Shown piece by piece: positions 4,322 through 18,682 of a DNA stretch of 64,000 nucleotides (position 1 is the first letter of the stretch; every line of letters starts with the position of its first letter). Origin of the DNA: a virus; IMG/VR virus record IMGVR_UViG_3300030328_001638, positions 3,140-67,139 of that record, one strand, 5' to 3'. The position numbers and the translations under genes were made by a program. The notes under the pieces were generated by a model. The model was not told the origin of the DNA and did not search any database. It was given only the letters and a program-made list of their open reading frames with translations.

Positions 4322-4364
4322 AATTTTTGTATTTTAGCAAAGATACAAATTAAATTTAATTGAA

Positions 4365-5052: not shown

Positions 5053-5061
5053 TTTATTTTT

Positions 5062-6687: not shown

Positions 6688-6743
6688 AGTAAATTACATT
6701 TAATTTTATTAGCAAATATAATAAAATAATAATTATCTAAAAA

Positions 6744-6937
6744 GTGTTGAGTGTCGATTTTTATTAACTATTTACAACTATAGGTGTTTTATATTATTTT
6801 TATTTTTTACTATTTATATAATTATAGTATAAAATCTACACTAATTTATAAATAAAGATATAAAGATATAATAATCAATAACTTAAGAAAAAAAAAATCT
6901 ACACAAAATCAACACTAATTTATTAATAATCGAACAC
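6744..6937. promoter_or_regulatory. Origin-like element A (AATCNACAC iterons, AT-rich spacer, IHF-consensus site)
   Basis: GTGTTGA/GTGTCGATTT 6744-6760; AATCTACAC at 6833 and 6896; AATCAACAC at 6907; AATCGAACAC at 6928; AATCAAtaacTTA 6873-6885. Confidence 0.6.
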
Positions 6938-6944
6938 TAACTAC

Positions 6945-6976
6945 AAAAAAAAATAGGATTCTATAAAAGAACCCTA
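6945..6976 (-). terminator. Intrinsic terminator
   Basis: Minus-strand TAGGGTTCT-TTTAT-AGAATCCTA followed by T9. Confidence 0.8.
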
Positions 6977-7005
6977 CTTTTCAAAACAAAACAAAAGGAA
7001 AATTT

Positions 7006-7218
7006 TTAGTACTCGTATATATCACGATCGCCTTCCATGCGCATTTTAGCTCTTTCAATACCGTCTGCGATACAGTCTATCTTATATTGTTTTTTCATTT
7101 GTTTTCTATACATAGATGCTTGTTCAATTCCAGAAATTCCATCAGGTCTTGAGTTAATCAGCCTTCCGTCTTTCATATAAAGACCTTCTACGTAGTCGGA
7201 TATTTTATTTTCTGCCAT
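7006..7218 (-). CDS. Hypothetical protein
   Basis: ORF track; own promoter-like element (7233-7240) and terminator. Confidence 0.75.
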   Translation of the reverse strand: MAENKISDYVEGLYMKDGRLINSRPDGISGIEQASMYRKQMKKQYKIDCIADGIERAKMRMEGDRDIYEY

Positions 7219-7391
7219 AGCTTATTTTTTTGTAAAGATAATAAAAATTTTTCAGATACTCAGAGGTATAGGGTTATTATATAATATACGAGTGGCCCTC
7301 CCCCAAAAGAAAGTCATATTTTTTATCAGATTGAATAGGATTCCTTTCGGTTTCTCCAAACTTTTTACCTTTTTTTCTCAGGAAGGGATGA

Positions 7392-7524
7392 GTCCTGCTC
7401 TCCTCTCTCTGTCCTGCTCTCTCTCCTGCTCTTGCTCTCTTGATTGCATAGGTATAACTACCTTCCCTTACCCCATACCCCTTACCCCTACCTACCTTCC
7501 CTTAAAAGAAAGCAAGTTAATGAG
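7392..7524. repeat. Pyrimidine-skewed low-complexity tract with CCCC(T/A)TA repeats (G-quadruplex motif on minus strand)
   Basis: TCCTGCTCTC-like repeats, then CCC-TTA-CCCC-ATA-CCCC-TTA-CCCC at 7465-7488. Confidence 0.75.
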
Positions 7525-7699
7525 GGATGCTTAACCTTCCCTTAATCACACAACGACACACAAAAAGAATAAACAATTTCCAGTGTATATTATATCAAGA
7601 AAATAATACCTAAAATACTGATCCTGAATGCGTTGCAGAGGTTACAGCTCGGAAAAATATATGTGTGATAATATAGCATTGAAATTAGTGCGTAAAATG

Positions 7700-7731
7700 T
7701 TTGGTTATGTACATACAATTGCGTACTTTTA
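7700..7731 (+). promoter_or_regulatory. Putative early promoter (Bacteroidota sigma-A type)
   Basis: TTTG (-33) ... TACTTTTA (-7 variant) ahead of the first plus-strand gene. Confidence 0.5.
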
Positions 7732-7780
7732 CATCAGTTATGCACGAAGTATAACAGAAATATTAACAAAACAAACAAAA

Positions 7781-7996
7781 ATGACAACAAACGAAGTATC
7801 ATTACAAAGCAAACTTGCAGAAGGAATGCCCTTCATCAAGCAATCTAATTCAGAAGGATTAGTGAAACAAACAAACGAGTTAATCGTAATAGATAATTAC
7901 TCAAATATACCAACAATCAAATGTCCACCTGAAGTTCAGGTAGCATTACGATTTGTAGGTTTCAAAGGAATAACAGATTATATATTTAACTATTAA
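7781..7996 (+). CDS. Early hypothetical protein
   Basis: Start reassigned to ATG 7781, which follows the A-rich AAACAAACAAAA leader. Confidence 0.65.
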   Translation: MTTNEVSLQSKLAEGMPFIKQSNSEGLVKQTNELIVIDNYSNIPTIKCPPEVQVALRFVGFKGITDYIFNY

Positions 7997-8007
7997 AAAC
8001 AACAATT

Positions 8008-8508
8008 ATGAATACTAAAATGAACACTTTAATGACAAAAATTACGAATGGCGATATGGCAAGATTATCAATCATATTGCACAGACATATCGTTGTGAAT
8101 AATCCTCAAGATTGTACAGAGGGATTAGAAGAATTAAATTCTAAACTAAAACAGATGGTTGAGAGCAATACTCATTCTCACTACTCCCTTGATATTCAAG
8201 GTTGTTCTGATGCACACAAGTTGCACGAGGGACAAACCATATCATTGGGTTTAGGAGTGAATAGATTAGAGGAGTTAGAGAAGGAATTTGAAGAATGGAT
8301 GAATGAGAATGTTTATCAGAATGTGGATGGTAGTTTCTCAACACAAGATGCACAATGGAGAAATAGAATCCAAACAAAGAATGAGTTGAAAAAATACTTT
8401 CTACGAGAGTTTAGAGAGTTGGAAGAGATAAGCGATAGAGAGAAAAATTACAATCCTAATGAAAACTATATAAGGGGAGGATTTAATCCATTTAAAACTA
8501 AATTATAA
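8008..8508 (+). CDS. Early hypothetical protein
   Basis: ORF track; stop codon forms part of hammerhead 1 stem I. Confidence 0.7.
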   Translation: MNTKMNTLMTKITNGDMARLSIILHRHIVVNNPQDCTEGLEELNSKLKQMVESNTHSHYSLDIQGCSDAHKLHEGQTISLGLGVNRLEELEKEFEEWMNENVYQNVDGSFSTQDAQWRNRIQTKNELKKYFLREFRELEEISDREKNYNPNENYIRGGFNPFKTKL

Positions 8509-8565
8509 CTGATGAGGATTCAAAATCCGAAACAAGATGATTGTGAAATTCTCTTGTATTATAAT
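8502..8565 (+). ncRNA. Hammerhead ribozyme, type I (HH1)
   Basis: ATTATAA-CTGATGA-GGAT/ATCC-GAAA-CAAGA/TCTTG-TA-TTATAAT; predicted cleavage GUA after 8558. Confidence 0.88.
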
Positions 8566-8583
8566 AAAAATAAAACAATAATT

Positions 8584-8802
8584 ATGAAAACCGAACACTT
8601 AACTTATGAATGGGAAATCTCTCCTAACAATATTGTAGAGATTGACTATACCTACTCTCAAGAGAGTGGAGACTATCTACAACCACCTTACGAAGAAATT
8701 GAGATAGACAGAATGACTTTAAATGGAGATGATGTAACAGATAGATTACACGATACATTTGAGTATGAAATTATAGAAGAAATTACTAACCAAACACTTT
8801 AA
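8584..8802 (+). CDS. Acidic early hypothetical protein
   Basis: Start reassigned to 8584; the upstream extension is ribozyme sequence. Confidence 0.7.
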   Translation: MKTEHLTYEWEISPNNIVEIDYTYSQESGDYLQPPYEEIEIDRMTLNGDDVTDRLHDTFEYEIIEEITNQTL

Positions 8803-8805
8803 ATT

Positions 8806-9273
8806 ATGACAAAACAAGAATTTTTAAACAGGGCGAAAGCTATTAATGTAAAAGAATCACGAGGACACGATGCACCTTCTTATGAATGGGACATCAAATT
8901 TGACAATGTCAAAGTATGCAATTGTTGGGATGATTCTTATGGTGGAGAATTAGAAATAAATAATTATAGCCATCATTCTATTGAGAAGATTTATTCAACA
9001 ATAGACAAAGACTCTTTATGGGATGAAAAATACCAATGGACTACTACACTTGAGTTATTAATGTCTGAGTTGCTTGATAACCATTACCGAGACAAAGATG
9101 CTAAAAAAGGAGTAGTGTTCACTAATGGGAAAATTAGAGGATACAAACACACCATCCCAACATTAATAAAAAGAGGAGAAGGTTTCTTGATTCAGGACAT
9201 TATTGATTCTGTCAAGGATAAATCTACCATTGTAAATCACGAATATTTAACTAACCTAAAATTTAAAATATGA
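8806..9273 (+). CDS. Early hypothetical protein
   Basis: ORF track. Confidence 0.7.
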   Translation: MTKQEFLNRAKAINVKESRGHDAPSYEWDIKFDNVKVCNCWDDSYGGELEINNYSHHSIEKIYSTIDKDSLWDEKYQWTTTLELLMSELLDNHYRDKDAKKGVVFTNGKIRGYKHTIPTLIKRGEGFLIQDIIDSVKDKSTIVNHEYLTNLKFKI

Positions 9274-9503
9274 ATCCATTTAAAATAACACCGAGTAAAA
9301 TCTCAGATTCAGTACAGAAGAATATCTCAATTCAATTGGAGTTTGCTATCAATCAAATTGCAAGTGATTTGGATATAAATACTTTTGATGAGATTGATTT
9401 AGCATTGACTATTGTAAATGACATTGATGCCTTGAAAAAAACTATTGTTCACGAGATTATGAAGCAATGTCATCAAGAGTATAATAGGAGAAAAGGATTC
9501 TAA
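9270..9503 (+). CDS. Early hypothetical protein
   Basis: ORF track; ATGA overlap. Confidence 0.7.
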   Translation: MNPFKITPSKISDSVQKNISIQLEFAINQIASDLDINTFDEIDLALTIVNDIDALKKTIVHEIMKQCHQEYNRRKGF

Positions 9504-9519
9504 CAATCCCTTACTCAAC

Positions 9520-9559
9520 ACCTTGCCTTGCATAGAGATATGCGAGGTTTTGGTGGTAG
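9520..9559 (+). promoter_or_regulatory. Structured RNA motif copy 1 (9-bp GNRA hairpin + TTTTGGTGGTAG)
   Basis: ACC-ttg-CCTTGCATA-GAGA-TATGCGAGG-TTTT-GGTGGTAG. Confidence 0.65.
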
Positions 9560-9595
9560 TAGGCAATAGTGCCTTAACAATTAAATAACAAAACA

Positions 9596-10294
9596 ATGAA
9601 ACTATTAGAATTATTTAGTGGCTCTCGTTCAATCGGCAAAGTAGCTGAAGCAAGAGGACACGAGGTATTCTCGGTTGATAATGTAGCTTATCCAAAAACT
9701 AATTGGGTAGGAGACATTTTAGATTGGGACTACCGATTAAATGAAATGGAAGTAGGAGAATTAGATGAATTCTACATTCCTGATGTCATATGGGCATCTC
9801 CACCTTGCACCGACTTTTCGGTGGCTTGTATTGGTCGTAAATGGGTCAAAGGACACGAATTTATGCCGAAGGACAATCAGCTTTTAGGAATCAAGATCTT
9901 GGAAAAAACTTTAGAAATTATAAAATTTTACCTTGAGAAGAATCCTGAATTAATTTGGTACATAGAAAATCCAAGAGGTAAAATGCGTAAAGCACCTCAT
10001 TTCCAACATATTTATCATAAAAGAGAAACCATTACATATTGTCAATATGGGGACTCCAGAATGAAACCTACTGATATCTGGACCAATGATATTGGATGGA
10101 AACCAAAACCTATGTGTAAAAATGGGGACACTTGTCATACTCCTGCACCGAGAGGTTCACAGACAGGTACACAAGGACTTAAAGGTAATCACGAACGAAG
10201 CAAGATACCATCTGACTTATGTCAGGAGATTATAGAATCAGCAGAGTTTGAGGTTAACTTTAAGGAAAACATATTACTAACAAAAACTAAATAA
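9596..10294 (+). CDS. C5-cytosine DNA methyltransferase
   Basis: LELFSG (motif I), SPPC (IV), IENP (VI). Confidence 0.88.
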   Translation: MKLLELFSGSRSIGKVAEARGHEVFSVDNVAYPKTNWVGDILDWDYRLNEMEVGELDEFYIPDVIWASPPCTDFSVACIGRKWVKGHEFMPKDNQLLGIKILEKTLEIIKFYLEKNPELIWYIENPRGKMRKAPHFQHIYHKRETITYCQYGDSRMKPTDIWTNDIGWKPKPMCKNGDTCHTPAPRGSQTGTQGLKGNHERSKIPSDLCQEIIESAEFEVNFKENILLTKTK

Positions 10295-10296
10295 CT

Positions 10297-10497
10297 ATGA
10301 AAAAACCGAAATTTAGGTTGTGGTGGTTTACAGATTGCAATAAAAAAGATGAGAGATTGCATTCTAAAGACTTTAAAACTTTAATAGAAGCTAAACAATT
10401 TATCAAAGACAATCAAGATTGTGTGTTTGGTAAATCTATAAGAGATGTTGTAAATAAATCTTTTATCAAACCATCATTACTAACTAAAACTAAATAA
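10297..10497 (+). CDS. Early hypothetical protein
   Basis: ORF track. Confidence 0.65.
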   Translation: MKKPKFRLWWFTDCNKKDERLHSKDFKTLIEAKQFIKDNQDCVFGKSIRDVVNKSFIKPSLLTKTK

Positions 10498-10499
10498 CT

Positions 10500-10880
10500 A
10501 TGAAGAATACAATAAAAGATGTTCAACAAGCTGAATGCAATTTAGAGCCATTACATTGTCTCAATTGTGATAGTACAGAAGTTACATATCATCAATATAT
10601 AGGAGATGCATATTGTTCTGATTGTGGAGAGTGGCAAGAGGACATAAGCGATAGAGAGAGATTAAGAAAAGAAAACTTAATTGAAGCTATTGTAAGTTTA
10701 AATGATGAGGATAGCGTACATTTTTGCAATAAATGGGATTTAGCTCATTATGGCGAAGAAGTTAGTGCGACAGACCATTTATATAACTATGCAACAAATG
10801 TTGTAGAGGGAGAGTGCAAAACTCTTGAAGATATAAAGGAAATGGAAAACTATTTAAAGAAATATAAATCACTTAACTAA
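10500..10880 (+). CDS. Zinc-ribbon-containing early protein
   Basis: CxxC-x15-CxxC. Confidence 0.7.
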   Translation: MKNTIKDVQQAECNLEPLHCLNCDSTEVTYHQYIGDAYCSDCGEWQEDISDRERLRKENLIEAIVSLNDEDSVHFCNKWDLAHYGEEVSATDHLYNYATNVVEGECKTLEDIKEMENYLKKYKSLN

Positions 10881-10892
10881 AACTAAATAATT

Positions 10893-11012
10893 ATGAAAAT
10901 CAGAGAATTCATACAACATATTATCAACAATCCTTTTCAGGTATTTGCTGAAGTATGTTTTTTAATCATATTGTTTTTATGCTTACTATGTGTATTGCAT
11001 ATATTTCAATAG
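10893..11012 (+). CDS. Small membrane protein, 39 aa
   Basis: Read manually; preceded by the junction repeat; hydrophobic C-terminal half. Confidence 0.6.
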   Translation: MKIREFIQHIINNPFQVFAEVCFLIILFLCLLCVLHIFQ

Positions 11013-11033
11013 TGGAGTGGGGACTTTGTCCCC

Positions 11034-11082
11034 TCTGTCGTAAGGTGTGTGCCTTGCCTGATGAAGCGAAAGCAGAAACAGA
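11034..11082 (+). ncRNA. Hammerhead ribozyme, type III, short variant stem II (HH2)
   Basis: TCTG-TC-GTAAGGT/GCCTTGC-CTGATGA-A-GC-GAAA-GC-A-GAAA-CAGA; predicted cleavage GUC after 11039. Confidence 0.75.
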
Positions 11083-11107
11083 AATAAAAACTTAAAACTA
11101 AATAATT

Positions 11108-11605
11108 ATGGGACAATATTATATGCCGATAAACAAGACCAAAAAAGAGTATCTAAATCCTCATACTTTTGGCAATGGACTTAAACTAATGGAATTCACA
11201 AGTGATGGAAGAGGAGTGTTACAAGGACTATCTCTACTACTTGCTAATGGTAATGGTAGAGGGGGTGGAGACCATCCAAGTGGAGACAAGCTGATAGGAT
11301 CATGGAGTGGAGACAACATCACAATTGAAGGAGATTATGCTGACAATTCACTATGGGATGTTATAGCTAAAGATGAGGACAAGAAGAAACCACAATGGAA
11401 AGATGTAAGCATACCTACATACAGACTCTTACTGCAAAATACTTGGGTTGGTAGAGAGATGGAAGAAAGAATACTTAAAAGTGGTACACAATTTATGATG
11501 CAAGATGAGAAAAAGTTAATGGAAGAGTTATTTCCAAAAGCTTGTGTAGAAGGAGATTTGCGACAGAAATTTGACTTTGTAGAAAAAGGACAATCTGATG
11601 AGTAA
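11108..11605 (+). CDS. Conserved phage hypothetical protein (MGQYY...GLKLME...G.WAGD...GDY type)
   Basis: ORF track; bracketed by HH2 and HH3. Confidence 0.8.
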   Translation: MGQYYMPINKTKKEYLNPHTFGNGLKLMEFTSDGRGVLQGLSLLLANGNGRGGGDHPSGDKLIGSWSGDNITIEGDYADNSLWDVIAKDEDKKKPQWKDVSIPTYRLLLQNTWVGREMEERILKSGTQFMMQDEKKLMEELFPKACVEGDLRQKFDFVEKGQSDE

Positions 11606-11651
11606 AGGTTTAAACACCTACGAAACACCTCAATTTGAGGTGTAATTGTTT
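11588..11651 (+). ncRNA. Hammerhead ribozyme, type I (HH3)
   Basis: ACAAT-CTGATGA-GTA..GGT/ACC-TAC-GAAA-CACCTCA/TGAGGTG-TA-ATTGT; predicted cleavage GUA after 11644. Confidence 0.88.
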
Positions 11652-11668
11652 AATTTAAAAATAAAATT

Positions 11669-11872
11669 ATGAGTAATTTAAGCTATTGCAGATTTCAAAA
11701 TACTGCACGAGATTTAAGAGATTGCCTAAACGCAATTGAAGATGGTCAGATAGATGACTTATCATTTGAGGAATTCAAAGGAATACAACAAATTCTGCAG
11801 GATTGCGAAACCTTAATGTTTATGAAGGAAGAGATTGAAGATGAGATAGGAGTAGAGCCATCCAGAAACTAA
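11669..11872 (+). CDS. Conserved small phage protein (M.N.SYCRF.NT..DL.DC type)
   Basis: ORF track; recognisable N-terminal pattern. Confidence 0.75.
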   Translation: MSNLSYCRFQNTARDLRDCLNAIEDGQIDDLSFEEFKGIQQILQDCETLMFMKEEIEDEIGVEPSRN

Positions 11873-11894
11873 TAAATAACTAAAATAAATAACT

Positions 11895-12224
11895 ATGAAA
11901 AAAGATTTAAATTATGAATCAGTAGGAGAGTATTTTGAAGATGAGTTAGGTACTCTTATGGACAAGTATATAATGGAAACAAGTAAATATCAATATGTCA
12001 ATGAGGATGGGGAATTATTTTTTGAAGATAACGACAGGATGGATAGATATTATGAGACTGCGTTAGCTAACTTAATCTATCTGCTAAAAAAGACATATAA
12101 TTCTCCTAAACTTGCTTGTAAAACGACAGGTAAAGTTATAAATAATCCTGACTATGTTGAAGATAAAGAAAAAGAGGTTTTTCAAAATTTTGGACAAGGA
12201 TATTTATACAGGATCACAAACTAA
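11895..12224 (+). CDS. Early hypothetical protein
   Basis: ORF track. Confidence 0.65.
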   Translation: MKKDLNYESVGEYFEDELGTLMDKYIMETSKYQYVNEDGELFFEDNDRMDRYYETALANLIYLLKKTYNSPKLACKTTGKVINNPDYVEDKEKEVFQNFGQGYLYRITN

Positions 12225-12325
12225 ATATGCGAATTTATGTTTCGCATTAATATTTTAAGTTTGTACTATTATTAATTTAAATAGTAGAAATTTTCAATAA
12301 ATACATTACAAACAAAAAAATTGAT

Positions 12326-12586
12326 TTGCGAAAAATAGTAACAAATCAAGATGCAGAAATAGTTTTAGACATATTTCAAATTAGAGATTTCCTCACAGAA
12401 GTAGCTGAAGGAAATTATCAGATACATAATGAGTATGGAGAATATAATCATTATGCAAATAGCTATTGTATGGCTATGGTAGAAAAATTTGATTATCTAA
12501 ATGGATTAAATATTCCTCATTCAGAAAAAAGGAGTATAGAAAAATATTGTTTAAAATTACATTTGAAACATAAATTCGGTAAATAA
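12326..12586 (+). CDS. Hypothetical protein
   Basis: ORF track; TTG start; TAAGTTTG element at ~12256. Confidence 0.5.
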   Translation: MRKIVTNQDAEIVLDIFQIRDFLTEVAEGNYQIHNEYGEYNHYANSYCMAMVEKFDYLNGLNIPHSEKRSIEKYCLKLHLKHKFGK

Positions 12587-12592
12587 AACAAT

Positions 12593-12667
12593 TGCGAGGT
12601 AGAGCAGTCAGGTCAGCTCGTTGGGTTCATATCCCAAAGGTCGCAGGTTCAAATCCTGCCCTCGCAC
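12593..12667 (+). tRNA. tRNA-Met(CAT), initiator-like
   Basis: TGCGAGG/CCTCGCA acceptor stem, GAGC/GCTC D stem, TTGGG/CCCAA anticodon stem with CAT, GCAGG-TTCAAAT-CCTGC T arm; no encoded CCA. Confidence 0.92.
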
Positions 12668-12914
12668 CTAAAGGCAAAAAGTTTTTTATATTAATTAGCT
12701 ATGAAGTATACGAAGCTGATATGTGAGCCATAGGTTTAACTCATAGAAGTTGCAAATTCTTGTTAAACCTAAAATATTTATTAACCTAAACCTATATCAA
12801 TATGAGTAAGTACGAAGATAAAATCAAAGCATCTTTTTATTCCTTTCTGGTCATGATCCTAATATTAATTTATTTAATTATGAGTAATTATTAGGATTTA
12901 AGGATTTTTTTAAC

Positions 12915-12922
12915 TATATTTG
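12915..12922 (+). promoter_or_regulatory. Bacteroidota -7 promoter element
   Basis: TATATTTG. Confidence 0.6.
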
Positions 12923-12953
12923 CACAAGATGTAAACATTATATTGTTTTGTTG

Positions 12954-12994
12954 ACCTCTACCTCACTATGAAAATAGTGGGGTTTTGGTGGTAG
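12954..12994 (+). promoter_or_regulatory. Structured RNA motif copy 2 (9-bp GNRA hairpin + TTTTGGTGGTAG)
   Basis: ACC-tcta-CCTCACTAT-GAAA-ATAGTGGGG-TTTT-GGTGGTAG. Confidence 0.65.
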
Positions 12995-13029
12995 AAACGA
13001 AAATTTATTATTAACTTAAAATTAAAATT

Positions 13030-13848
13030 ATGCCAAATCATTGCTTTTGTAATATCCAAGTTTACGACAAAAAGGATATTAAATTATTAAAACAAATCGA
13101 ACAAATAGACACTGGACTTGCAGGATTTATTAAGCCAATGCCTGAATGTTTAAACAACACTACAATGCCTGTCAATATTATTTCTCAAAAGGAATATGAT
13201 GAGCAAGAACTGAAAAGAAAAAACAATCCTGAAGAGAGAATCTTTTCATCAGGAATTACTAAAGAGATGCAAACAGAATACAAGGATAAATTTAAATTTG
13301 ACAATTGGTACAATTGGGCATCATTCAATTGGGGAACAAAATGGGGGTGCTATGAGAATGAGGTTAATTTAGACTCTTATACCTTTACTACTGCGTGGTC
13401 TCCACTTGATGATGATATTCTCGAAGCTTTTGCTAAACTAACCACTAAAGGATTCTTTTATACTTTTGAGGAAGAAACAGGATGGGGTGGAGTGAGAGAA
13501 TATGATGAAAATGGAGTATGTAAATCCTATTTTAATTATGAAGAACCTAATTGGGAGGAGATGAGACAATTTTGGATTAACAAGGAAGGGGTTATTAAGG
13601 AAGTTCCTTATGAAGAACATTTAGAAGAGCCTGCAGAAGATTTTGAATATCTATGTGAGGTCTCAGAACTTAAAGAGGATCATGACAATGGATCAGACCA
13701 ATATTCTGTAGGATTTTATGAATGTTATAACCTTCAGGAATACTATGGAAAAACCCTTGCAGATGTTTTTAATGAGGTGTGTAAGGATAAGAATATAGAC
13801 TCTTGGGTTTTTCATTCCCTTCAACAATCCATATCAAGCTTAATTTAA
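13030..13848 (+). CDS. DUF1281/YubB-like ferredoxin-fold protein
   Basis: MPNHC.., NWYNW...NWGTKW, FTTAWSP motifs. Confidence 0.75.
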   Translation: MPNHCFCNIQVYDKKDIKLLKQIEQIDTGLAGFIKPMPECLNNTTMPVNIISQKEYDEQELKRKNNPEERIFSSGITKEMQTEYKDKFKFDNWYNWASFNWGTKWGCYENEVNLDSYTFTTAWSPLDDDILEAFAKLTTKGFFYTFEEETGWGGVREYDENGVCKSYFNYEEPNWEEMRQFWINKEGVIKEVPYEEHLEEPAEDFEYLCEVSELKEDHDNGSDQYSVGFYECYNLQEYYGKTLADVFNEVCKDKNIDSWVFHSLQQSISSLI

Positions 13849-13928
13849 ATAATAACAATAATGGGGGGGGGAGAAAGTTTAAGATTGCACTTCTATCATC
13901 CCCCTTCTATTATTATAACCCAACAATT

Positions 13929-14183
13929 ATGAACAAAATAGATACAATACAGATGATTTTAGAGACTGCACCTTTAGACCAAATTACACCTCATACTTTA
14001 TATGAAGTAATAATGGAAGTAATAGAATCTGAAGAAAAAGCAAATGAAATCGGATTAAAGGAAATAAGACGCATAACAAAACAATTAGATTGGAGTAATG
14101 ACTTTATAGATTATGTAGAAGATCAAATGCCTAATATATATAATGAAGCGTGTGCGTGGGCAGATAAAATGGAAATACAATAA
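13929..14183 (+). CDS. Early hypothetical protein
   Basis: Start reassigned to ATG 13929. Confidence 0.65.
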   Translation: MNKIDTIQMILETAPLDQITPHTLYEVIMEVIESEEKANEIGLKEIRRITKQLDWSNDFIDYVEDQMPNIYNEACAWADKMEIQ

Positions 14184-14196
14184 CAAATAAATAACT

Positions 14197-14421
14197 ATGA
14201 AAAATAAATTAACTCCTTTTCAAGAGGAACAAATGATTCACTTATGCAATAAACTTTTAGAGTATATGTATGAGCCTGAATATACTGATTTTAATGAACG
14301 ACATTTGTCAGATATAGTTGGTTTAAAAAATTTTAGCCAAGAGTATCAAGATGAACTAAACAAAAGCGACCATATATTTAAATACATATATGCGTTAGAA
14401 AAACTAATAAATCAATTATGA
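14197..14421 (+). CDS. Early hypothetical protein
   Basis: ORF track. Confidence 0.65.
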   Translation: MKNKLTPFQEEQMIHLCNKLLEYMYEPEYTDFNERHLSDIVGLKNFSQEYQDELNKSDHIFKYIYALEKLINQL

Positions 14422-14663
14422 AAAAATATAAATTAAAAAAATCAAGGTTTTTGGATTGGATGTTCAGCGACTTTGATGACCAACAATATTGGGGTGGATA
14501 TTTCCTTAAGGAATTAAAACAAAATGGGAGAATTGAGTACACTATCGACCAGATGTTAGCTGAAAGAGATGAACTACCTATGTGGATCATGGAAGGATTT
14601 CAGTTTCAATATATGGATGAGGAGATGGTGTCAGATATGAACGAAGTAGAATTAATAGATTAA
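14418..14663 (+). CDS. Early hypothetical protein
   Basis: ORF track; ATGA overlap. Confidence 0.65.
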   Translation: MKKYKLKKSRFLDWMFSDFDDQQYWGGYFLKELKQNGRIEYTIDQMLAERDELPMWIMEGFQFQYMDEEMVSDMNEVELID

Positions 14664-14664
14664 A

Positions 14665-14844
14665 ATGGATATAGCAATAATAAGATTTACGGAAAACACA
14701 GGGAGAGAGTATATAGTAGAAATTACTAACGATCCTGACAAGTGGCTAATAGAAAACAACACTTTTAGAGATGAGCCTGAAAAATTATCGGACTTTGATA
14801 TAGAATGGACTACATTAAAACACTATGACAATGGAACTATATAG
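14665..14844 (+). CDS. Small hypothetical protein, 59 aa
   Basis: Read manually (MDIAIIRFTENTGREY...). Confidence 0.55.
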   Translation: MDIAIIRFTENTGREYIVEITNDPDKWLIENNTFRDEPEKLSDFDIEWTTLKHYDNGTI

Positions 14845-15001
14845 ATACGAGGAAACAGATGATGATGTTATGTATTTCATTACAGACATTAGAGAGTTTA
14901 TACAAGATCATAATGAGTGTATGGAAACCGAATACACTTCAGTAAAAGAATATAATAAGGGAGAGCCACACAGAATAATAACACAAATTAATTTAAACTA
15001 A
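14831..15001 (+). CDS. Small hypothetical protein, 56 aa
   Basis: Read manually (MELYRYEETDDD...). Confidence 0.55.
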   Translation: MELYRYEETDDDVMYFITDIREFIQDHNECMETEYTSVKEYNKGEPHRIITQINLN

Positions 15002-15004
15002 CCT

Positions 15005-15160
15005 ATGAATGAATTAGAAAGAATTATCTTGAAAGAAAAACTAAAACCAATGCCTAACTTCGACTATATTAGGTGGTTACAGCAACTAAATTTAGAGCAA
15101 TATAAAAAATCTTCTGTCTTTAAAAATAAAGACAATAATAGTTTGTTTATACCAAAGTAA
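15005..15160 (+). CDS. Small hypothetical protein, 51 aa
   Basis: Read manually (MNELERIILKEKLKP...). Confidence 0.5.
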   Translation: MNELERIILKEKLKPMPNFDYIRWLQQLNLEQYKKSSVFKNKDNNSLFIPK

Positions 15161-15178
15161 TTGATTATTTTTACCCAA

Positions 15179-15304
15179 GTTATCATAATAGTTTGTTTTT
15201 GTTTGAGAGAGGGGGCGATCGGTTAATAATGCCAAATAATTTTAATGGGTGTAAAAAGAACATCCTTTTAATATTAAATGTTTTGATGCCCCCTCTTTTT
15301 TTTT
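15179..15304 (+). ncRNA. Candidate small RNA with long closing stem and U tail
   Basis: Promoter-like TTTG...TATTTTTA upstream; AGAGGGGGC...GCCCCCTCT followed by a T-run. Confidence 0.4.
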
Positions 15305-15311
15305 ATTCCCT

Positions 15312-15524
15312 ATGTCACATTACTTAATACAACAATTAAAGCAAAGCAACGATCTAAATAAATTTTATAAGGAAATTTATATAGAACTTGATTGTTATTT
15401 TAAATATAGTGGAATGATTGAATATAAAAACCGATTTACTGCCCAGCATCCTGTTCATGATCCTGTGGTAAAAGAAAAGATTAACAATGATATGTCTAAA
15501 TATAAATTAAAAAAAAATAAATGA
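15312..15524 (+). CDS. Hypothetical protein
   Basis: ORF track. Confidence 0.6.
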   Translation: MSHYLIQQLKQSNDLNKFYKEIYIELDCYFKYSGMIEYKNRFTAQHPVHDPVVKEKINNDMSKYKLKKNK

Positions 15525-15745
15525 CTAAAGATGATAGAGTCCCTCATTATTATGTAGGGCAAAATAAAGAAAGAAATTACCAAGCACGATATGTAGTAAG
15601 CGATTTTGATTGCACATATAATATTGGTACTGCTGTGACTTACTGCCTACGCAGTTCACGAAAACACGACACTCCTATTCAAGATTTATATAAAGCAATA
15701 GCACATTTAGAATTTGAAATAGAGAGATTAAAGGAGATTAATTAA
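15521..15745 (+). CDS. DUF3310-like (SaV/T7 gp1.7-like) protein
   Basis: PHYY...YNIGTAVTYCLRS.RK....DLYKA...LEFEI pattern. Confidence 0.75.
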   Translation: MTKDDRVPHYYVGQNKERNYQARYVVSDFDCTYNIGTAVTYCLRSSRKHDTPIQDLYKAIAHLEFEIERLKEIN

Positions 15746-15755
15746 AATAAATAAA

Positions 15756-16052
15756 ATGAAAAAAGCAATTTTTGACAAGTACGCATACGCAATAGCAGAA
15801 CAATTTCATCTAAAGTTAGATGAGATGTTTGATAAAAGTAGAAGAAGAGATTTAGTAGATGCAAGGCAACTACTATTTTATCTTTGTTTAGAAAGACCGA
15901 TTAGAGTATCTTATGTTCAAAAGTTTATGGAAGATAATGGATGCAAAGTTGCTCATTCTACTATAATTCATGGATACAAACAAGCCAAAGCATTAATTGA
16001 CTCAGACTCAGATTATAGTGAGATGATAGAGAAAATTAATAATGAAGTATAA
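15756..16052 (+). CDS. Stand-alone DnaA domain-IV-like HTH protein
   Basis: KSRRRDLVDARQLLFYLC...HSTIIHG matches the Bac_DnaA_C signature. Confidence 0.75.
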   Translation: MKKAIFDKYAYAIAEQFHLKLDEMFDKSRRRDLVDARQLLFYLCLERPIRVSYVQKFMEDNGCKVAHSTIIHGYKQAKALIDSDSDYSEMIEKINNEV

Positions 16053-16450
16053 TGAGATACACCTTAAAAGAAGTTTATAATCAAGCGATTACCGATACTA
16101 ACTCTACCATTAATAAAATGGGTAGAGGAGTGTTTGTTATAAGCTTGGGAGTAAAGCTTCAACACTTTCCAAGTAAAACTGAAATCCTCAATTGTTCAAA
16201 GGGTGGAGATTACTATAGAGAGTTAGATGACCAGGAGTATGAGTTTTTTTTTGAGTTCGGTTGGAAGAAAGGAGTTTTATTAATTGCATTAAGCAATTGT
16301 AATTACAAACTCCAACTAATTGAAGATCGAATGAAAACAGAAATGAATACTCGGAAAAACGACAAGCATATACAGAATCTCAAAACACGAAGAGACAATG
16401 TGTTAAAAAAATATGCTAAATATAAAATTAAATTAAATCAATTAAATTAA
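16052..16450 (+). CDS. Hypothetical protein
   Basis: ORF track. Confidence 0.7.
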   Translation: MRYTLKEVYNQAITDTNSTINKMGRGVFVISLGVKLQHFPSKTEILNCSKGGDYYRELDDQEYEFFFEFGWKKGVLLIALSNCNYKLQLIEDRMKTEMNTRKNDKHIQNLKTRRDNVLKKYAKYKIKLNQLN

Positions 16451-16456
16451 AACATT

Positions 16457-17083
16457 ATGGAAAAGAAAAACATTTTTAAAGCGTTAGCTGAATTTCAGCA
16501 AGAAGTACCTGTTCTATTAAAAGGAACAGATGGTTATGGATATAAATATGTTCAGCTTGAACACATTATAGCACAGATTAATCCAATATTAAAAAAACAT
16601 GATCTCGGTTTTACCCAACTTGTAGAGGGTAATGGGCTAAAAACAATTTTGTTTCACACTATTAGTGGAGAAACAATTGAATCTCATTCTTTTATTCCTG
16701 AATGCGATATGAAAGGTATGAACGCATACCAATCAGCAGGTGCAGGTATCACATATTTTAGAAGATATGCCTTATCTTCAATGCTTGGGATTATAGCTGA
16801 TGCTGATACTGATGCAAAGGTTTATACTGCTACACCTAAAAGAACTGATTCTAAAAAAGCATTAAATAAATTAATAGATGCTTTTGATCTTGAAGTTACT
16901 AATGTAAAACAATTAATTACTTTAAAAGAAAATGATGAGAATTGGGAGAGAGTAATTGAGTATATGAACAATCATCCAAAGGCCAAAGGAAAAAGCCTGG
17001 ACAAGATTGTAAAGGATCTTCAAGAAAAGTATGTGATAACATCAGCAGTTAAGAAAAAGCTGTCTAAACATTTAGATTTATAA
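16457..17083 (+). CDS. ERF-family single-strand annealing protein
   Basis: YKYVQL, QSAGAGITYFRRYALSSMLGI..D.D.DA. Confidence 0.9.
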   Translation: MEKKNIFKALAEFQQEVPVLLKGTDGYGYKYVQLEHIIAQINPILKKHDLGFTQLVEGNGLKTILFHTISGETIESHSFIPECDMKGMNAYQSAGAGITYFRRYALSSMLGIIADADTDAKVYTATPKRTDSKKALNKLIDAFDLEVTNVKQLITLKENDENWERVIEYMNNHPKAKGKSLDKIVKDLQEKYVITSAVKKKLSKHLDL

Positions 17084-17187
17084 TACCTTAAATTCAAAGG
17101 TAGTTAGGTATCAAGAGGGTGGAGATAGTTCATTAGAACGCATCTATGGAGGTCAAAATTATAAAAAAACTAAAAAAAAAGCATAAA

Positions 17188-17922
17188 ATGAGTGAAATAG
17201 GAGATTTAGAGAAATTAAAGGATGATAAGAATTACTATGGAGAATTTGGAAAAAAATGGTTATCAAATTCAGATATTTATTCTTTGCTTAATGATCCATT
17301 ATCTTTTCGTGTAGCCAAAGAACAAACCAAAGCAATGATAGAGGGTAGGTATTTTCATACTGCTTTATTAGAGCCACATAAAATTAAAAACTATAAAGTG
17401 GTGGATATGTCAAGTAGAAATACTAAAGCATACAAAGATTTGTTAGAGGATCATGGAGAGATTATGTTGTTAAAAAAAGAACAATCTAACTTGGACCAGA
17501 TGGTTTCAGTTATTAAAAACAACAAGGAAATGATTAAACAAATCTATGATATGGATAATCAATATGAAATTCCTGGTGTTAAAGAGATTATGGGGGTTAT
17601 GTGGAAAGGCAAAGCTGATATAATTTGTGAAGATAAAATAATTGACATCAAAAGTTCTGCTGACATTTCAAGATTTAAATGGTCAGCTTCTAAATATAAT
17701 TATGATAGCCAAGCTTATATTTACCAAAAGTTATTTGGAAAGCCTGTAGAGTTCTTTGTGATTGATAAAACAACACATCAATTAGCTATCTTTACTCCAT
17801 CTTTAGATTTTTTAGAAAGAGGTCAGGAAAAGGTAGGACAAGCTGTTGAGATTTATAATACTTTTTTTACACCTGAATCTACTGAAGATATAAATCAATA
17901 TGTACATTACGAAACTTTATAG
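17188..17922 (+). CDS. RecE/DUF3799-like PD-(D/E)XK exonuclease
   Basis: LSNSDI, G..FH..LLEP, KGKADI, IIDIKS, Y..QA.IY; start reassigned from 17146. Confidence 0.85.
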   Translation: MSEIGDLEKLKDDKNYYGEFGKKWLSNSDIYSLLNDPLSFRVAKEQTKAMIEGRYFHTALLEPHKIKNYKVVDMSSRNTKAYKDLLEDHGEIMLLKKEQSNLDQMVSVIKNNKEMIKQIYDMDNQYEIPGVKEIMGVMWKGKADIICEDKIIDIKSSADISRFKWSASKYNYDSQAYIYQKLFGKPVEFFVIDKTTHQLAIFTPSLDFLERGQEKVGQAVEIYNTFFTPESTEDINQYVHYETL

Positions 17923-17924
17923 CA

Positions 17925-18077
17925 ATGAAGAAAAGAAAATTAAATAGCAAGAATCCTAAATATAAAAAAGAGGAAGAAAAAGAAAAAAAGAAACTAACTA
18001 AAATACTAATAAATGAAAAAAAGAATTTTAAAATTTATGCAGTCTTTGAAGAACATCTTTCCGAAAAGAACGCCTAA
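17925..18077 (+). CDS. Small Lys-rich hypothetical protein
   Basis: Read manually (MKKRKLNSKNPKY...). Confidence 0.45.
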   Translation: MKKRKLNSKNPKYKKEEEKEKKKLTKILINEKKNFKIYAVFEEHLSEKNA

Positions 18078-18190
18078 AGGTACTATTATGTGGATAAGAG
18101 TTCCAATGTCCGTTAATAGTAAGGTCGAAAAAGAAGATTTAATCTTTGAGACAATGAATCATTTGGAACGAACAATTAAAATTATATAAT
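18038..18190 (+). CDS. Small hypothetical protein
   Basis: Read manually (MQSLKNIFPKRTPKG...); abuts the next ATG. Confidence 0.45.
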
Positions 18191-18442
18191 ATGAGTGAAG
18201 AAAAAATCTATGTAGGATCAGGAACATCTAAATTTGATGGAGATCAAGTTGCGTGTTCTGTTTGTTTAACAGACTTACCTCAAGAACATATGTTTGAATA
18301 TAGTGGTAAAAAATACATTAAGCTAATCGTTCAAAAGAAACGAGAGGTTGATCAGTATGGTAAAAGCCACTATGTCGCAGTTGACACTTGGAAGCCTGAA
18401 GAACAAAGCAAAGCAAAGGTAGAGAAAGATCTACCCTTTTAG
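18191..18442 (+). CDS. Putative single-stranded DNA-binding protein
   Basis: Small beta-rich protein ending in DLPF (SSB-type C-terminal tip); recombination cluster context. Confidence 0.55.
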   Translation: MSEEKIYVGSGTSKFDGDQVACSVCLTDLPQEHMFEYSGKKYIKLIVQKKREVDQYGKSHYVAVDTWKPEEQSKAKVEKDLPF

Positions 18443-18459
18443 TGTTTGATTGTTAAATT

Positions 18460-18487
18460 AAGGGGGGCAATCGCCCCTCTTTTTTTT
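18460..18487 (+). terminator. Intrinsic terminator
   Basis: AGGGGGGC-AATC-GCCCCTCT followed by T-run. Confidence 0.85.
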
Positions 18488-18503
18488 GGCCTTTTTTAAA
18501 AAG

Positions 18504-18679
18504 GTGTTGATTTTAGTTGGGTTTTATAAGCTTTTATATAATTTTCTACTCTTAATATTTTTATATATCATATTTATTAACTAATTTTCAACACTAAAAT
18601 GAAGAAAAATAGATAAGTAACTAATAATTAAATAGTTACAAAAAAAATAATCAACACAAAATCAACACAAAATCGACAC
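18504..18679. promoter_or_regulatory. Origin-like element B (iterons, AT-rich spacer, IHF-like site) directly upstream of primase
   Basis: GTGTTGATTT 18504; TCAACAC ending 18594; AATTAAatagTTA 18626-18638; AATCAACAC 18649 and 18660; AATCGACAC 18671 (11-bp phasing). Confidence 0.65.
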
Positions 18680-18682
18680 CAA

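What the first reader, a model, noticed from the sequence alone, without database searches (positions are those of the whole stretch)
6744..18679. Twin origin-like elements with base-exact spacing flank the early region
Seen: elements at 6744-6937 and 18504-18679 share one blueprint at a constant offset of 11,753 bp, although the spacers differ. The order is an inverted GTGTYGATTT box (6751/18504), an ~80-bp AT-rich spacer, an ..ACAC box ending 90 bp later (6841/18594), an IHF-consensus-like WATCAANNNNTTR 32 bp further (6873 exact; 18626 one mismatch), then AATCNACAC iterons 23 bp later at 11-bp phasing (6896, 6907 / 18649, 18660, 18671). Each adjoins an intrinsic terminator, and B abuts the primase-helicase start. 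Inference: dual replication origins, or paired nucleoprotein sites for looping or recombination. Direct orientation would allow excision of the early region, but no recombinase is visible in the window.
Basis: partly seen in the sequence, partly recalled or inferred. Interest (0 to 1): 0.8.

Follow-up and report, generated by a model that had tools for sequence, protein, structure and literature searches.

The report
Twin iteron origin-like modules in phage
An uncultured marine phage carries two copies of a conserved non-coding module, short repeated DNA words around an easily melted stretch, which most likely mark where its own primase-helicase starts DNA replication.

Summary
AATCNACAC occurs 11 times in the window (1.9 expected), 8 of them in the two elements, with the parts of the two elements at one offset of 11,753 bp. 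A profile built only from relatives' primase-upstream regions hits this 67-kb phage genome exactly twice, at A and B, same strand.

The module is: inverted boxes, AT-rich tract, direct box(es), IHF-like site, 11-bp phased boxes. It lies upstream of primase-helicase in 60 of 74 related loci and upstream of groEL in 47 of 73. The box word differs between phages but matches between A and B within a genome. A and B hold the two least stable 80-bp stretches of the window.

Box identity tracks the predicted C-terminal winged helix of the primase-helicase, not the phage's DnaA-domain-IV proteins.

Best reading (0.52): two origin-type modules read by the primase-helicase, as in SaPI Rep-ori and P4 alpha-ori/crr, with regulatory side roles. 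Excision of the early region is not supported.

This scan noted the same twin module earlier on another genome (e1-3258545).

No function was tested; no cultured member carries it.

The parts
6744..6937 (+). Module A. Inverted boxes 6744-6750 and 6751-6759; AT-rich tract 6760-6832; middle box 6833-6841; IHF-like site 6873-6885; phased boxes 6896-6904 and 6907-6915; degenerate box with a 1-nt insertion at 6928-6937.
   Evidence: Read; motif statistics. A profile built only from relatives' B elements hits here at E 5e-14, + strand. TRF finds an 11-bp array at 6894-6915.
6790..6869 (.). Least stable 80-bp duplex segment of the whole 64-kb window (candidate DNA-unwinding element of A).
   Evidence: Nearest-neighbour dG -73.4, rank 1 of all 80-bp windows.
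6713..6720 (-). Host-type (Bacteroidota) -7 promoter box TAnnTTTG of the groEL operon. The inverted boxes of A lie just upstream of its -33 region.
   Evidence: The same box is conserved in relatives (seen as caaatata or caaagata after the groEL start). That TAnnTTTG is the -7 consensus is recalled knowledge.
5062..6687 (-). Phage groEL (groES at 4795-5052), the leftward operon that starts beside A.
   Evidence: phrog_5725, E 3.9e-133.
6948..6982 (-). Intrinsic terminator of the small leftward ORF 7006-7218, on the right flank of A.
   Evidence: 15-pair stem followed by a T run.
18460..18482 (+). Intrinsic terminator of the rightward early/recombination genes, on the left flank of B.
   Evidence: 9-pair stem with 6 GC pairs followed by a T run.
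18504..18679 (+). Module B. Inverted box 18504-18512; AT-rich tract 18513-18585; middle box 18586-18594; IHF-like site 18626-18638 (1 mismatch); three phased boxes 18649-18657, 18660-18668 and 18671-18679.
   Evidence: Read; motif statistics. Profile hit at E 1e-21, + strand. TRF finds an 11-bp array of 3.3 copies.
18554..18633 (.). Second least stable 80-bp duplex segment of the window (candidate DNA-unwinding element of B).
   Evidence: dG -78.7, rank 2.
18683..21094 (+). Primase-helicase, 803 aa: BT4734-like_N, PriCT_1 and a DUF5906 P-loop. The proposed reader of the boxes.
   Evidence: Pfam and PHROGs. No DNA polymerase was found in any ORF scanned.
20639..21091 (+). C-terminal domain of the primase-helicase, a predicted winged helix. 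Recognition helix about residues 757-772; wing about residues 777-789.
   Evidence: AF2 mean pLDDT 82. Winged-helix matches include the P4 origin-binding domain 1ka8_A at Z 4.8. The best box co-variation windows are 755-769 and 775-789.
18191..18442 (+). 83-aa protein ending in DLPF, a tail like that of single-strand-binding proteins. It is the last gene before B.
   Evidence: Translation. The SSB-tail reading is recalled knowledge; there was no family hit.
15756..16052 (+). Stand-alone DnaA domain IV protein (98 aa). Considered as the box reader and not supported.
   Evidence: PF08299, E 1.9e-9. It aligns to DnaA residues 361-442 of 8btg. No co-variation with the box.
23487..23915 (+). Second DnaA domain IV protein (142 aa). 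Considered as the box reader; no support, but weakly tested.
   Evidence: PF08299, E 2e-10. Co-variation scan negative, with only 1 unusual-box genome in the set.

Best explanation
A and B are two paralogous copies of one origin-type nucleoprotein module.

Short boxes point towards each other across an ~80-bp, very easily melted AT-rich tract. On the right side follow a bend site that matches the IHF consensus and then two or three more boxes in 11-bp phase.

Inferred mechanism. The phage's own primase-helicase binds the boxes through its C-terminal winged-helix domain, opens the AT-rich tract, loads itself and primes. The host polymerase then takes over, since no phage DNA polymerase was found. 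This is how the SaPI Rep/PriRep and P4 alpha initiators work.

Because the last boxes of B end 3 bp before the primase-helicase start codon, the same binding probably also auto-regulates that gene. Because the inverted boxes of A abut the groEL promoter, it probably also tunes that operon.

Whether A and B are two independent origins, or an origin plus a helper site as in P4 ori plus crr, is open. A is the copy kept in the one examined relative that lacks B (L049 with its groEL-side locus L178).

Shown: module homology, conservation, within-genome matching of the box word, duplex instability, and the predicted fold. Inferred: binding, melting, initiation and regulation.
For: 1. Homology of A and B. 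A profile built from 35 non-identical B elements of relatives, with the window left out, hits the 67,139-bp genome at E<=1e-3 exactly twice. The hits are window 18476-18679 (E 1e-21) and 6744-6918 (E 5e-14), both on the + strand.

2. Conservation. With a cleaned 32-sequence profile, 60 of 74 primase-upstream regions match, 58 of them in gene orientation. This count is partly circular, because 32 of those regions built the profile. Independently, 47 of 73 groEL-upstream regions match, all 47 in the window's orientation. Many of the 26 misses show the same layout with other box words.

3. The box word differs between phages (TCAACAC, TCGACAT, TTGGAAT, AATCGTCA, TGAGCAT, T..TCAT and others) but is shared by A and B of one genome. 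Over 14 genome pairs the own-pair score is 215 against 99 +/- 20 for shuffled pairs, reached by 0 of 20,000 permutations. In 4 of 5 genomes with unusual boxes, B uses the box of its own A.

4. Spacing. One diagonal joins the inverted boxes to the phased boxes in 4 of 14 genomes, including this one, although the spacers differ.

5. Melting. The two least stable 80-bp stretches of the window lie in A (rank 1) and B (rank 2). In relatives: G001 ranks 1 and 2; G011, which has a single module, rank 1; G009 ranks 1 and 11; G008 ranks 3 and 6; G012, whose module match is weak, rank 19.

6. IHF consensus on the + strand: 24 of 62 non-identical B regions (shuffles give a mean of 1.8, maximum 6) and 22 of 60 A regions (shuffles 2.6), at fixed positions.

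7. Reader. The C-terminal 151 aa of the primase-helicase are predicted (pLDDT 82) as helix-turn-helix plus a beta hairpin. The best structural matches are winged helices: RFX at Z 5.5, the P4 origin-binding domain 1ka8_A at Z 4.8 (rmsd 3.4, 73 aligned), and ORC/Cdc6/Cdt1 winged helices. In a sliding-window scan of 53 primase-helicases, the windows that best follow box identity after removing whole-protein distance are residues 755-769 (recognition helix), 775-789 (wing), 616-630 and 750-764. Their partial r is 0.36-0.37, and 19 of 1000 label permutations reach that maximum. The DnaA-domain-IV proteins show nothing: dC1 maximum 0.07 (reached by 755 of 1000 permutations) and dC2 maximum 0.16 (531 of 1000).

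8. Context. The genes just left of B are Erf, an exonuclease and an SSB-like protein. No DNA polymerase was found.

9. The layout matches the SaPI ori as described in PMC9371898 (passages read): a C-terminal winged helix reads short iterons, the centre is AT-rich, and at least two iterons on each side point in opposite directions.
Against: No experiment and no replication data exist. The phage is uncultured, and the public runs that hold it are kept only as contigs, so coverage gradients could not be read.

The cumulative GC skew turns near A, but that point is also where transcription direction switches, so it says nothing.

14 of 74 relatives have no B upstream of primase. One complete relative has a single strong module hit (G011) and another only a weak one (G012). 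A second module is therefore dispensable.

The winged-helix matches are generic: Z is 4.3-5.5, all tied, and Foldseek found nothing at E<=1e-3. Sequence searches against solved structures found neither P4 alpha nor PriRep5.

The co-variation scan used box strings that I curated by eye. It rests largely on about 7 unusual-box genomes and does not fully remove relatedness. A third top window (616-630) lies outside the winged helix.

The primase operon needs a promoter, and B has no exact host-type -7 box. Part of the module may therefore simply be an activator-dependent promoter.

SaPI origins lie downstream of rep. This module lies upstream of the gene.
Confidence: 0.52

Rival explanations
1. 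The modules are purely transcriptional control regions. A phage-encoded regulator binds the box arrays, helped by an IHF/HU-type bend. It times two operons, groEL-groES leftward from A and primase-helicase rightward from B, without any role in starting replication.
For: - The inverted boxes of A abut the -33 region of a conserved host-type groEL promoter.
- The phased boxes of B end 3 bp before the primase ATG.
- Each module sits just after a terminator, that is, at the start of a transcription unit.
- B has no exact host-type -7 box, so an activator-dependent promoter is plausible.
- B is missing in 14 of 74 relatives, as expected if promoters evolve independently.
- AT-rich DNA is also typical of promoters.
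Against: The whole module is kept at both places, although at A only the left end faces a gene and at B only the right end does. Its orientation is fixed relative to the genome, not relative to the local gene: all 47 A hits, and both modules on one strand in the 4 genomes with two modules.

The AT-rich tracts are the two least stable stretches of the entire window, not merely AT-rich.

The box co-varies with the primase-helicase winged helix, and no dedicated regulator that co-varies was found.

The two readings are not exclusive. Initiators commonly auto-regulate through their iterons (recalled knowledge).
Confidence: 0.27
2. The modules are sites for another DNA transaction: a packaging recognition site like lambda cosB, a centromere-like partition site like R1 parC, or a pair of sites that loop out and silence the early region.
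For: Repeated boxes plus an IHF site resemble lambda cosB, and 11-bp phased direct repeats resemble R1 parC (both recalled knowledge). Two like modules on one strand bracket the early region.
Against: - The terminase gene lies about 36 kb away, at 55181-57004.
- No partition ATPase or ParR-like family was found in the ORFs scanned.
- Some relatives have one module only.
- Box co-variation points to the primase-helicase.
Confidence: 0.1
3. A and B are direct-repeat recombination sites that allow the early region to be excised as a circle.
For: They lie in direct orientation and share short boxes.
Against: - Exact identity between A and B is at most about 11 bp, and the spacers differ.
- No site-specific recombinase family was found.
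- Contigs of 4 runs gave only one candidate joint (6516 to 18649). It has 22 nt on its shorter side and starts inside groEL, not in A.
- The module is equally conserved where it occurs singly.
Confidence: 0.03

Closest known systems
SaPI/PICI replication module: Rep, or the fused primase-helicase PriRep5, with its iteron ori
   Same: As described in PMC9371898 (passages read), a C-terminal winged-helix domain of a self-loading helicase reads short iterons. The origin has an AT-rich centre, with at least two iterons on each side pointing in opposite directions, and lies right next to the initiator gene. In SaPI5, primase and helicase are one polypeptide.

Here, inverted boxes face direct boxes across an AT-rich tract. 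The module abuts a fused primase-helicase with a predicted C-terminal winged helix, and the box word is lineage-specific.
   Different: - The module lies upstream of the gene, not downstream.
- There are two copies per genome, 10-17 kb apart.
- It has an added IHF-like site and an 11-bp phased array on one side.
- The boxes are 7-9 nt.
- No sequence similarity to solved Rep/PriRep chains was found.
- The helicase core could not be modelled well (pLDDT under 50), so the fold was not compared.
- It belongs to a 67-kb lytic-type phage, not a satellite.
Satellite phage P4: alpha protein (primase, helicase, C-terminal origin-binding winged helix) with ori and crr
   Same: One primase-helicase with a C-terminal winged-helix origin-binding domain (the title of Yeo et al. 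2002 was seen in the reference list of PMC2777425). It has two separate iteron-bearing cis sites some kilobases apart, and replication uses the host polymerase. The ori/crr details are recalled, because the P4 review was not held.

The model of the C-terminal domain aligns to the P4 origin-binding domain 1ka8_A at Z 4.8, rmsd 3.4, 73 residues.
   Different: - The match to 1ka8 is no better than to other winged helices, and there is no sequence match.
- Here the two sites are full copies of one stereotyped module with an IHF-like site.
- Some relatives manage with one module.
Iteron origins of theta plasmids and phage-plasmids (P1 oriR with incC/incA, R6K, pPS10)
   Same: Iterons, an AT-rich tract and an IHF site next to the initiator gene; iterons over the initiator's own promoter give auto-regulation; second iteron arrays act in control by pairing (all recalled knowledge).
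   Different: Plasmid iterons are about 17-22 bp and are read by Rep_3/RepA-type initiators. Here the boxes are 7-9 nt at 11-bp phase, and no such initiator family was found in the ORFs scanned.
Bacterial oriC with DnaA
   Same: The order 'unwinding element, box, IHF site, array of 9-mers with 2-bp gaps (11-bp period)' resembles the left half of E. coli oriC (recalled knowledge). The phage also encodes two DnaA domain IV proteins.
   Different: The host-type DnaA box TTATNCACA is not enriched (5 found, 4.1 expected) and none lies in A or B. The DnaA-domain proteins lack the ATPase part and do not co-vary with the boxes.

Membership tests
Self-loading primase-helicase origins (SaPI Rep/PriRep-ori, P4 alpha-ori/crr): functional class | Iterons on both sides of an AT-rich, easily melted centre, pointing in opposite directions | tested here: met
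   Window: A has 2 inverted boxes, an AT-rich tract, 1 middle box and 2-3 phased boxes. B has 1 inverted box, an AT-rich tract, 1 middle box and 3 phased boxes. Most relatives have 2 inverted plus 2 direct boxes around the tract. The tracts are the two least stable 80-bp stretches of the window.
Self-loading primase-helicase origins (SaPI Rep/PriRep-ori, P4 alpha-ori/crr): functional class | Origin directly beside the initiator gene | tested here: met
   B ends 3 bp before the primase-helicase ATG, and 60 of 74 relatives have the module there. It is upstream of the gene, not downstream as in SaPIs. A is 11.7 kb away.
Self-loading primase-helicase origins (SaPI Rep/PriRep-ori, P4 alpha-ori/crr): functional class | Initiator combines primase, helicase and a C-terminal winged-helix DNA-binding domain | tested here: met
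   Pfam finds BT4734-like_N, PriCT_1 and DUF5906. The C-terminal 151 aa are predicted as a winged helix (pLDDT 82) and match winged helices at Z 4.3-5.5, including P4 1ka8_A. The fold match is generic.
Self-loading primase-helicase origins (SaPI Rep/PriRep-ori, P4 alpha-ori/crr): functional class | Iteron word is matched to the initiator's winged helix (cognate specificity) | tested here: inconclusive
   The top co-variation windows are the recognition helix and the wing, with partial r 0.37 and 19 of 1000 permutations reaching it. The boxes were curated by eye, there are few unusual-box genomes, and relatedness is only partly removed.
Self-loading primase-helicase origins (SaPI Rep/PriRep-ori, P4 alpha-ori/crr): functional class | Specific binding, melting and initiator-dependent replication of the site | not testable with these tools
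   Needs EMSA or footprinting, permanganate probing and a plasmid replication assay.
P4 alpha / SaPI Rep protein families (homology) | Detectable sequence similarity to P4 alpha origin-binding domain or SaPI Rep/PriRep | tested here: not met
   phmmer of the whole protein and a profile of the C-terminal domain against all PDB chains gave no such hit at E<=1 and E<=10 respectively. I therefore say 'works like', not 'is a member of'.
DnaA-oriC type origin | Clusters of DnaA boxes TTATNCACA read by a DnaA protein | tested here: not met
   5 matches in the window against 4.07 expected, none in A or B. The phage's DnaA-domain-IV proteins do not co-vary with the boxes.
Plasmid iteron origins with Rep_3/RepA initiators | 17-22-bp iterons and a Rep_3/RepA-type initiator gene | tested here: not met
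   The boxes are 7-9 nt with an 11-bp period. No such family appeared in the Pfam or PHROG scans of the ORFs.
Packaging site of the lambda cosB type | Lies beside the terminase genes / at the genome end | tested here: not met
   The terminase large subunit is at 55181-57004, about 36 kb from B. The physical genome ends are unknown.

The most novel reading that the evidence does not exclude
The two modules are a coupled pair: an origin plus a distant helper or pairing site, as in P4 ori/crr or plasmid handcuffing. Their box word and the winged helix of the primase-helicase have diversified together into many private 'replicon codes' across an abundant family of marine phages. Related phages that co-infect one cell would then not fire or titrate each other's origins. 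This would be a phage counterpart of plasmid incompatibility groups, and a natural series of specificity swaps for a winged helix.
Probability: 0.22. Interest if true: 0.75.

Novelty: new variant of a known kind. Interest (0 to 1): 0.55.

Why it matters
If this reading is right, it gives a candidate replication origin and initiator for a large family of uncultured marine phages. The family is large: 284 primase relatives and 414 groEL relatives were found in IMG/VR. Its relatives, and its host-type promoter boxes, point to Bacteroidota hosts. Nothing is known about how these phages replicate.

The family offers dozens of natural box/protein pairs in one fixed scaffold. That makes the recognition code of a winged-helix initiator directly testable by swapping. 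It also poses a concrete question: why keep two full modules when some relatives need only one?

I found no paper on this. A search for 'Flavobacterium phage' with 'iterons' gave 0 papers, and a search for 'elemo', 'Flavobacterium', 'phage' and 'primase' gave 1 paper, not about this. The library lacks most subscription journals.

Tried and rejected
DnaA-domain-IV proteins as the box reader. This was my first idea, from the Pfam hits. It is rejected for dC1. Its recognition region is the same in genomes with different boxes (window versus G016, and L012 versus L013), and no window of it co-varies with the box. dC2 is only weakly tested: it was not found in the 5 unusual-box genomes by the genome search (0 of 5, which shows nothing).

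Unsupervised exact 6-mer cluster scan of 6 genomes. Too noisy: it did not recover even A and B.

Elemovirus phages, the cultured relatives with 38-41% identity. Their gene layout differs, with a replication protein directly before the primase and only 74 bp before groEL. I saw no module in the one intergenic stretch I read.

RNA families. Rfam gave only a tRNA between A and B and nothing in A or B.

Public runs. No RNA holder is listed. Contigs of 4 runs gave no credible A/B junction. The joint 6516 to 18649 has only 22 nt on its shorter side.

Structure of the helicase plus C-terminal part (475 aa). pLDDT was 61 overall and under 50 across the helicase core, so no fold search was made with it.

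Foldseek against PDB with the C-terminal model gave nothing at E<=1e-3.

My guess that a tRNA replaces B in G018 and L024. ARAGORN finds none.

Host-type DnaA boxes are not enriched.

Megablast of 6000-19500 against the phage collection gave no match.

The P4 review PMC372931 is not held, so the P4 ori/crr details are recalled. A paper search for the P4 terms found nothing usable.

The sigma-70 style promoter scan is no better than shuffles (77 found against 73 expected).

Full report
**What the window is.** The window is bases 3140-67139 of a single 67,139-bp viral contig. GC content is about 33%.

The gene map comes:
- A leftward block at 120-6687 ends with groES (4795-5052) and groEL (5062-6687).
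- A small leftward ORF lies at 7006-7218.
- A rightward block at about 7290-25645 holds small early genes, a tRNA-Met, two DNA methyltransferases, an Erf annealing protein, a PDDEXK exonuclease and an 83-aa protein ending in DLPF. It continues with an 803-aa primase-helicase (18683-21094), an SNF2 helicase, a VRR-NUC nuclease, a phosphoesterase and a SET-domain protein.
- A leftward structural block begins at 25635 and holds portal, terminase and ORFs of 2755 and 1696 aa.

No DNA polymerase was found in any ORF scanned. The closest named relatives are an uncultured 'Caudoviricetes sp.' (MW202828.1; primase 68% identical) and, more remotely, Flavobacterium, Cellulophaga, Polaribacter and Nonlabens phages. 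Host-type Bacteroidota -7 boxes (TAnnTTTG; the consensus is recalled) precede many leftward operons.

- AATCNACAC occurs 11 times in the window against 1.87 expected. None of 100 shuffles reached 11. Eight of the 11 lie in A and B, and there are none in the rest of the genome.
- Tandem Repeats Finder reports the 11-bp arrays on its own.
- Both terminators exist, but on opposite flanks: right of A on the minus strand, left of B on the plus strand.
- B ends 3 bp before the primase-helicase ATG.

**A and B are copies of one module.** I built an nhmmer profile from the 200 nt upstream of primase in relatives only (35 non-identical sequences, window excluded; three were later seen to be false inclusions). 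It hits the whole genome at E<=1e-3 exactly twice, on the same strand: at B (E 1e-21) and at A (E 5e-14). Three complete relatives also give two same-strand hits, 9.9-17 kb apart. One (G011) gives a single hit, the groEL-side copy, and one (G012) gives only weak hits.

**The module is a family trait.**
- IMG/VR holds 284 relatives of the primase-helicase and 414 of the groEL. The best 80 loci of each were kept.
- With a cleaned 32-sequence profile, 60 of 74 primase-upstream regions match. This is partly circular, because 32 of them built the profile.
- Independently, 47 of 73 groEL-upstream regions match, all 47 in the orientation seen in the window.
- These counts include identical duplicates: 62 B-side and 60 A-side sequences are non-identical.
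- Many of the 26 A-side misses show the same layout with other words when read by eye or with a box finder that assumes no word. The layout is two inverted boxes 7-8 bp apart, then two direct boxes about 85-92 bp further on and 8-9 bp apart, then more boxes about 45 bp beyond.
- The 14 B-side misses form a group with a different short hairpin motif before the primase. For one of them (L049) the groEL-side module is present (L178).

**The box word is private to each genome.** Between phages the word changes: TCAACAC, TCAACAT, TCGACAT, ACGACAT, TTGACAT, TTAACAC, TGAGCAT, T..TCAT, TTGGAAT, AATCGTCA, ACGACAA, CGACG. Within a genome, A and B use the same word. Over 14 genomes with both modules, the sharing of repeated 6-mers between a genome's own A and B sums to 215, against 99 +/- 20 for shuffled partners. 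None of 20,000 permutations reached 215. In four of five genomes with unusual words, B carries the word of its own A; the fifth has no B. Related genomes share words, so this test shows concordance, not independent events.

**Spacing.** In 4 of 14 genomes, this one included, a single ungapped diagonal joins A to B from the inverted boxes to the phased boxes, although the spacers are unalike. In most of the others a diagonal covers about half of the module. So spacing, not spacer sequence, is constrained.

**IHF-like site.** The strict consensus WATCAANNNNTTR lies on the + strand at fixed positions in 24 of 62 B regions (shuffles give a mean of 1.8, maximum 6; only 2 of 62 on the minus strand). 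It is found in 22 of 60 A regions (shuffles 2.6). Whether Bacteroidota hosts have a protein with this preference is not known to me.

**The AT-rich tract is exceptional.** By nearest-neighbour stability, the least stable 80-bp stretch of the whole window is 6790-6869, in A. The second least stable is 18554-18633, in B.

| Genome | Rank of module(s) among least stable 80-bp windows |
|---|---|
| G001 | 1 and 2 |
| G011 (single module) | 1 |
| G009 | B 1, A 11 |
| G008 | A 3, B 6 |
| G012 (weak module match) | 19 |

**Who reads the boxes?**
- The two stand-alone DnaA domain IV proteins (15756-16052 and 23487-23915) were my first candidates.
- They fail. The recognition region of the first is the same in genomes with different words. 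A sliding-window scan found no part of either that follows the box (maximum partial r 0.07 and 0.16; 755 and 531 of 1000 permutations do as well). The second protein was tested with only one unusual-box genome.
- Host-type DnaA boxes are not enriched.
- The primase-helicase is the better candidate. Its last 151 residues fold, in an AlphaFold2 model with mean pLDDT 82, into helices followed by a beta hairpin.
- Foldseek gave nothing at E<=1e-3, but its weak list is mostly winged helices.
- The search that does not depend on Foldseek gave winged helices at Z 4.3-5.5: RFX, the P4 origin-binding domain 1ka8_A (Z 4.8, rmsd 3.4, 73 residues), and ORC, Cdc6 and Cdt1. All of these are tied, so the match is generic.
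- In a scan of 53 primase-helicases (15-column windows, whole-protein distance partialled out), the four best windows are residues 755-769 (the predicted recognition helix), 616-630, 775-789 (the wing) and 750-764. Their partial r is 0.36-0.37, and 19 of 1000 label permutations reach that maximum.
- The box strings were curated by me, the signal leans on a handful of unusual-box genomes, and relatedness is only partly removed. I call this suggestive.

**Comparison with known systems.**
- The closest described layout is the SaPI origin. According to passages of PMC9371898, the C-terminal winged helix of the self-loading Rep helicase reads 5-6-nt iterons. The origin has an AT-rich centre, with at least two iterons on each side pointing in opposite directions, and sits right beside rep. 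In SaPI5, primase and helicase are fused.
- P4 alpha with ori and crr is the closest case of two separate iteron sites for one primase-helicase. Those details are recalled, because the review was not held.
- Differences here: the module is upstream of the gene; there are two full copies; one side has an added IHF-like site and phased array; and there is no sequence similarity to solved P4 or SaPI proteins.
- I therefore say it works like these systems, not that it is a member of their protein families.

**What stays open.**
- The modules surely touch transcription. The inverted boxes of A abut the groEL promoter, the phased boxes of B abut the primase start, and B must hold a promoter, since a strong terminator precedes it and no exact host -7 box is present.
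- A purely regulatory reading cannot be excluded (0.27). It does not explain why the whole module is kept in one genomic orientation at both places, nor why the tracts are the least stable DNA in the genome.
- Packaging, partition or looping roles (0.10) and recombination (0.03) have little support. No site-specific recombinase was found, and there is no credible A/B junction in contigs of four runs.

**Earlier notes of this scan.** After my analysis I found that another window from a different genome had been reported with the same twin module before primase and groEL (e1-3258545). It was read as an origin that also carries a promoter, with SaPI as the closest system. That agrees with my reading but is not independent evidence. 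It gave me the SaPI comparison. The paper, whose id came from note e1-5534483 in the same listing, I then checked myself.

**Verdict.** The finding is real, conserved and interpretable. It is a new variant of a known kind of system (iteron origins read by a self-loading primase-helicase) in a large uncultured phage family. It has an unusual duplicated, stereotyped module and a fast-changing box word. No function has been tested.

Noticed in passing
window 15756-16052 and 23487-23915: Two stand-alone DnaA domain IV (PF08299) proteins of 98 and 142 aa, conserved across the family. They do not track the module boxes. A role against the host's own DnaA/oriC is a guess.
   Followed up: partly
window 12593-12668: A tRNA-Met (anticodon CAT) in the middle of the early region (Rfam 66 bits; ARAGORN).
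   Followed up: no
window 7290-7560 (repeats at 7398-7432 and 7465-7492); L001 9140-9460: A non-coding, pyrimidine-rich low-complexity stretch with 12-nt and 7-nt repeats, between the small leftward ORF and the first rightward early gene. The relative MW202828.1 has a GC-rich repeat tract at the same place. It could mark early promoters or a genome end.
   Followed up: no
window 18191-18442: An 83-aa protein ending in DLPF, like the tail of single-strand-binding proteins, encoded just before B. It has no family hit. In relatives without module B, many primase-helicases themselves end in ...PF.
   Followed up: no
window 25873-34140: A 2755-aa ORF with no Pfam or PHROG match, at the head of the structural block.
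   Followed up: no
window 4795-6687 and 57679-58242: Phage groEL-groES pair, plus a second, distant GroES-like hit (phrog_13932) in the structural block.
   Followed up: no
L049, L050, L054, L057, L059, L060, L066, L068, L071, L074, L080 (about 100 nt upstream of primase): Relatives without module B share a motif, TTCATATTAATTGGTT (with variants), beside a hairpin directly before the primase-helicase gene.
   Followed up: no
L206 and L024, about 130 nt upstream of primase: Two relatives without module B share a less AT-rich conserved stretch there that looked tRNA-like to me. ARAGORN finds no tRNA. Unexplained.
   Followed up: partly
groEL-side loci L086-L110 and others, just right of the terminator that follows module A: A conserved non-coding word, cacaacagaacaaatggga, between the terminator and the stop codon of the small leftward ORF. 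In the window the stretch reads caaaacaaaacaaaagga.
   Followed up: no
window 9596-10294, 21091-21714, 24852-25241: Two DNA methyltransferases of one PHROG family and a SET-domain protein in the early/replication block.
   Followed up: no
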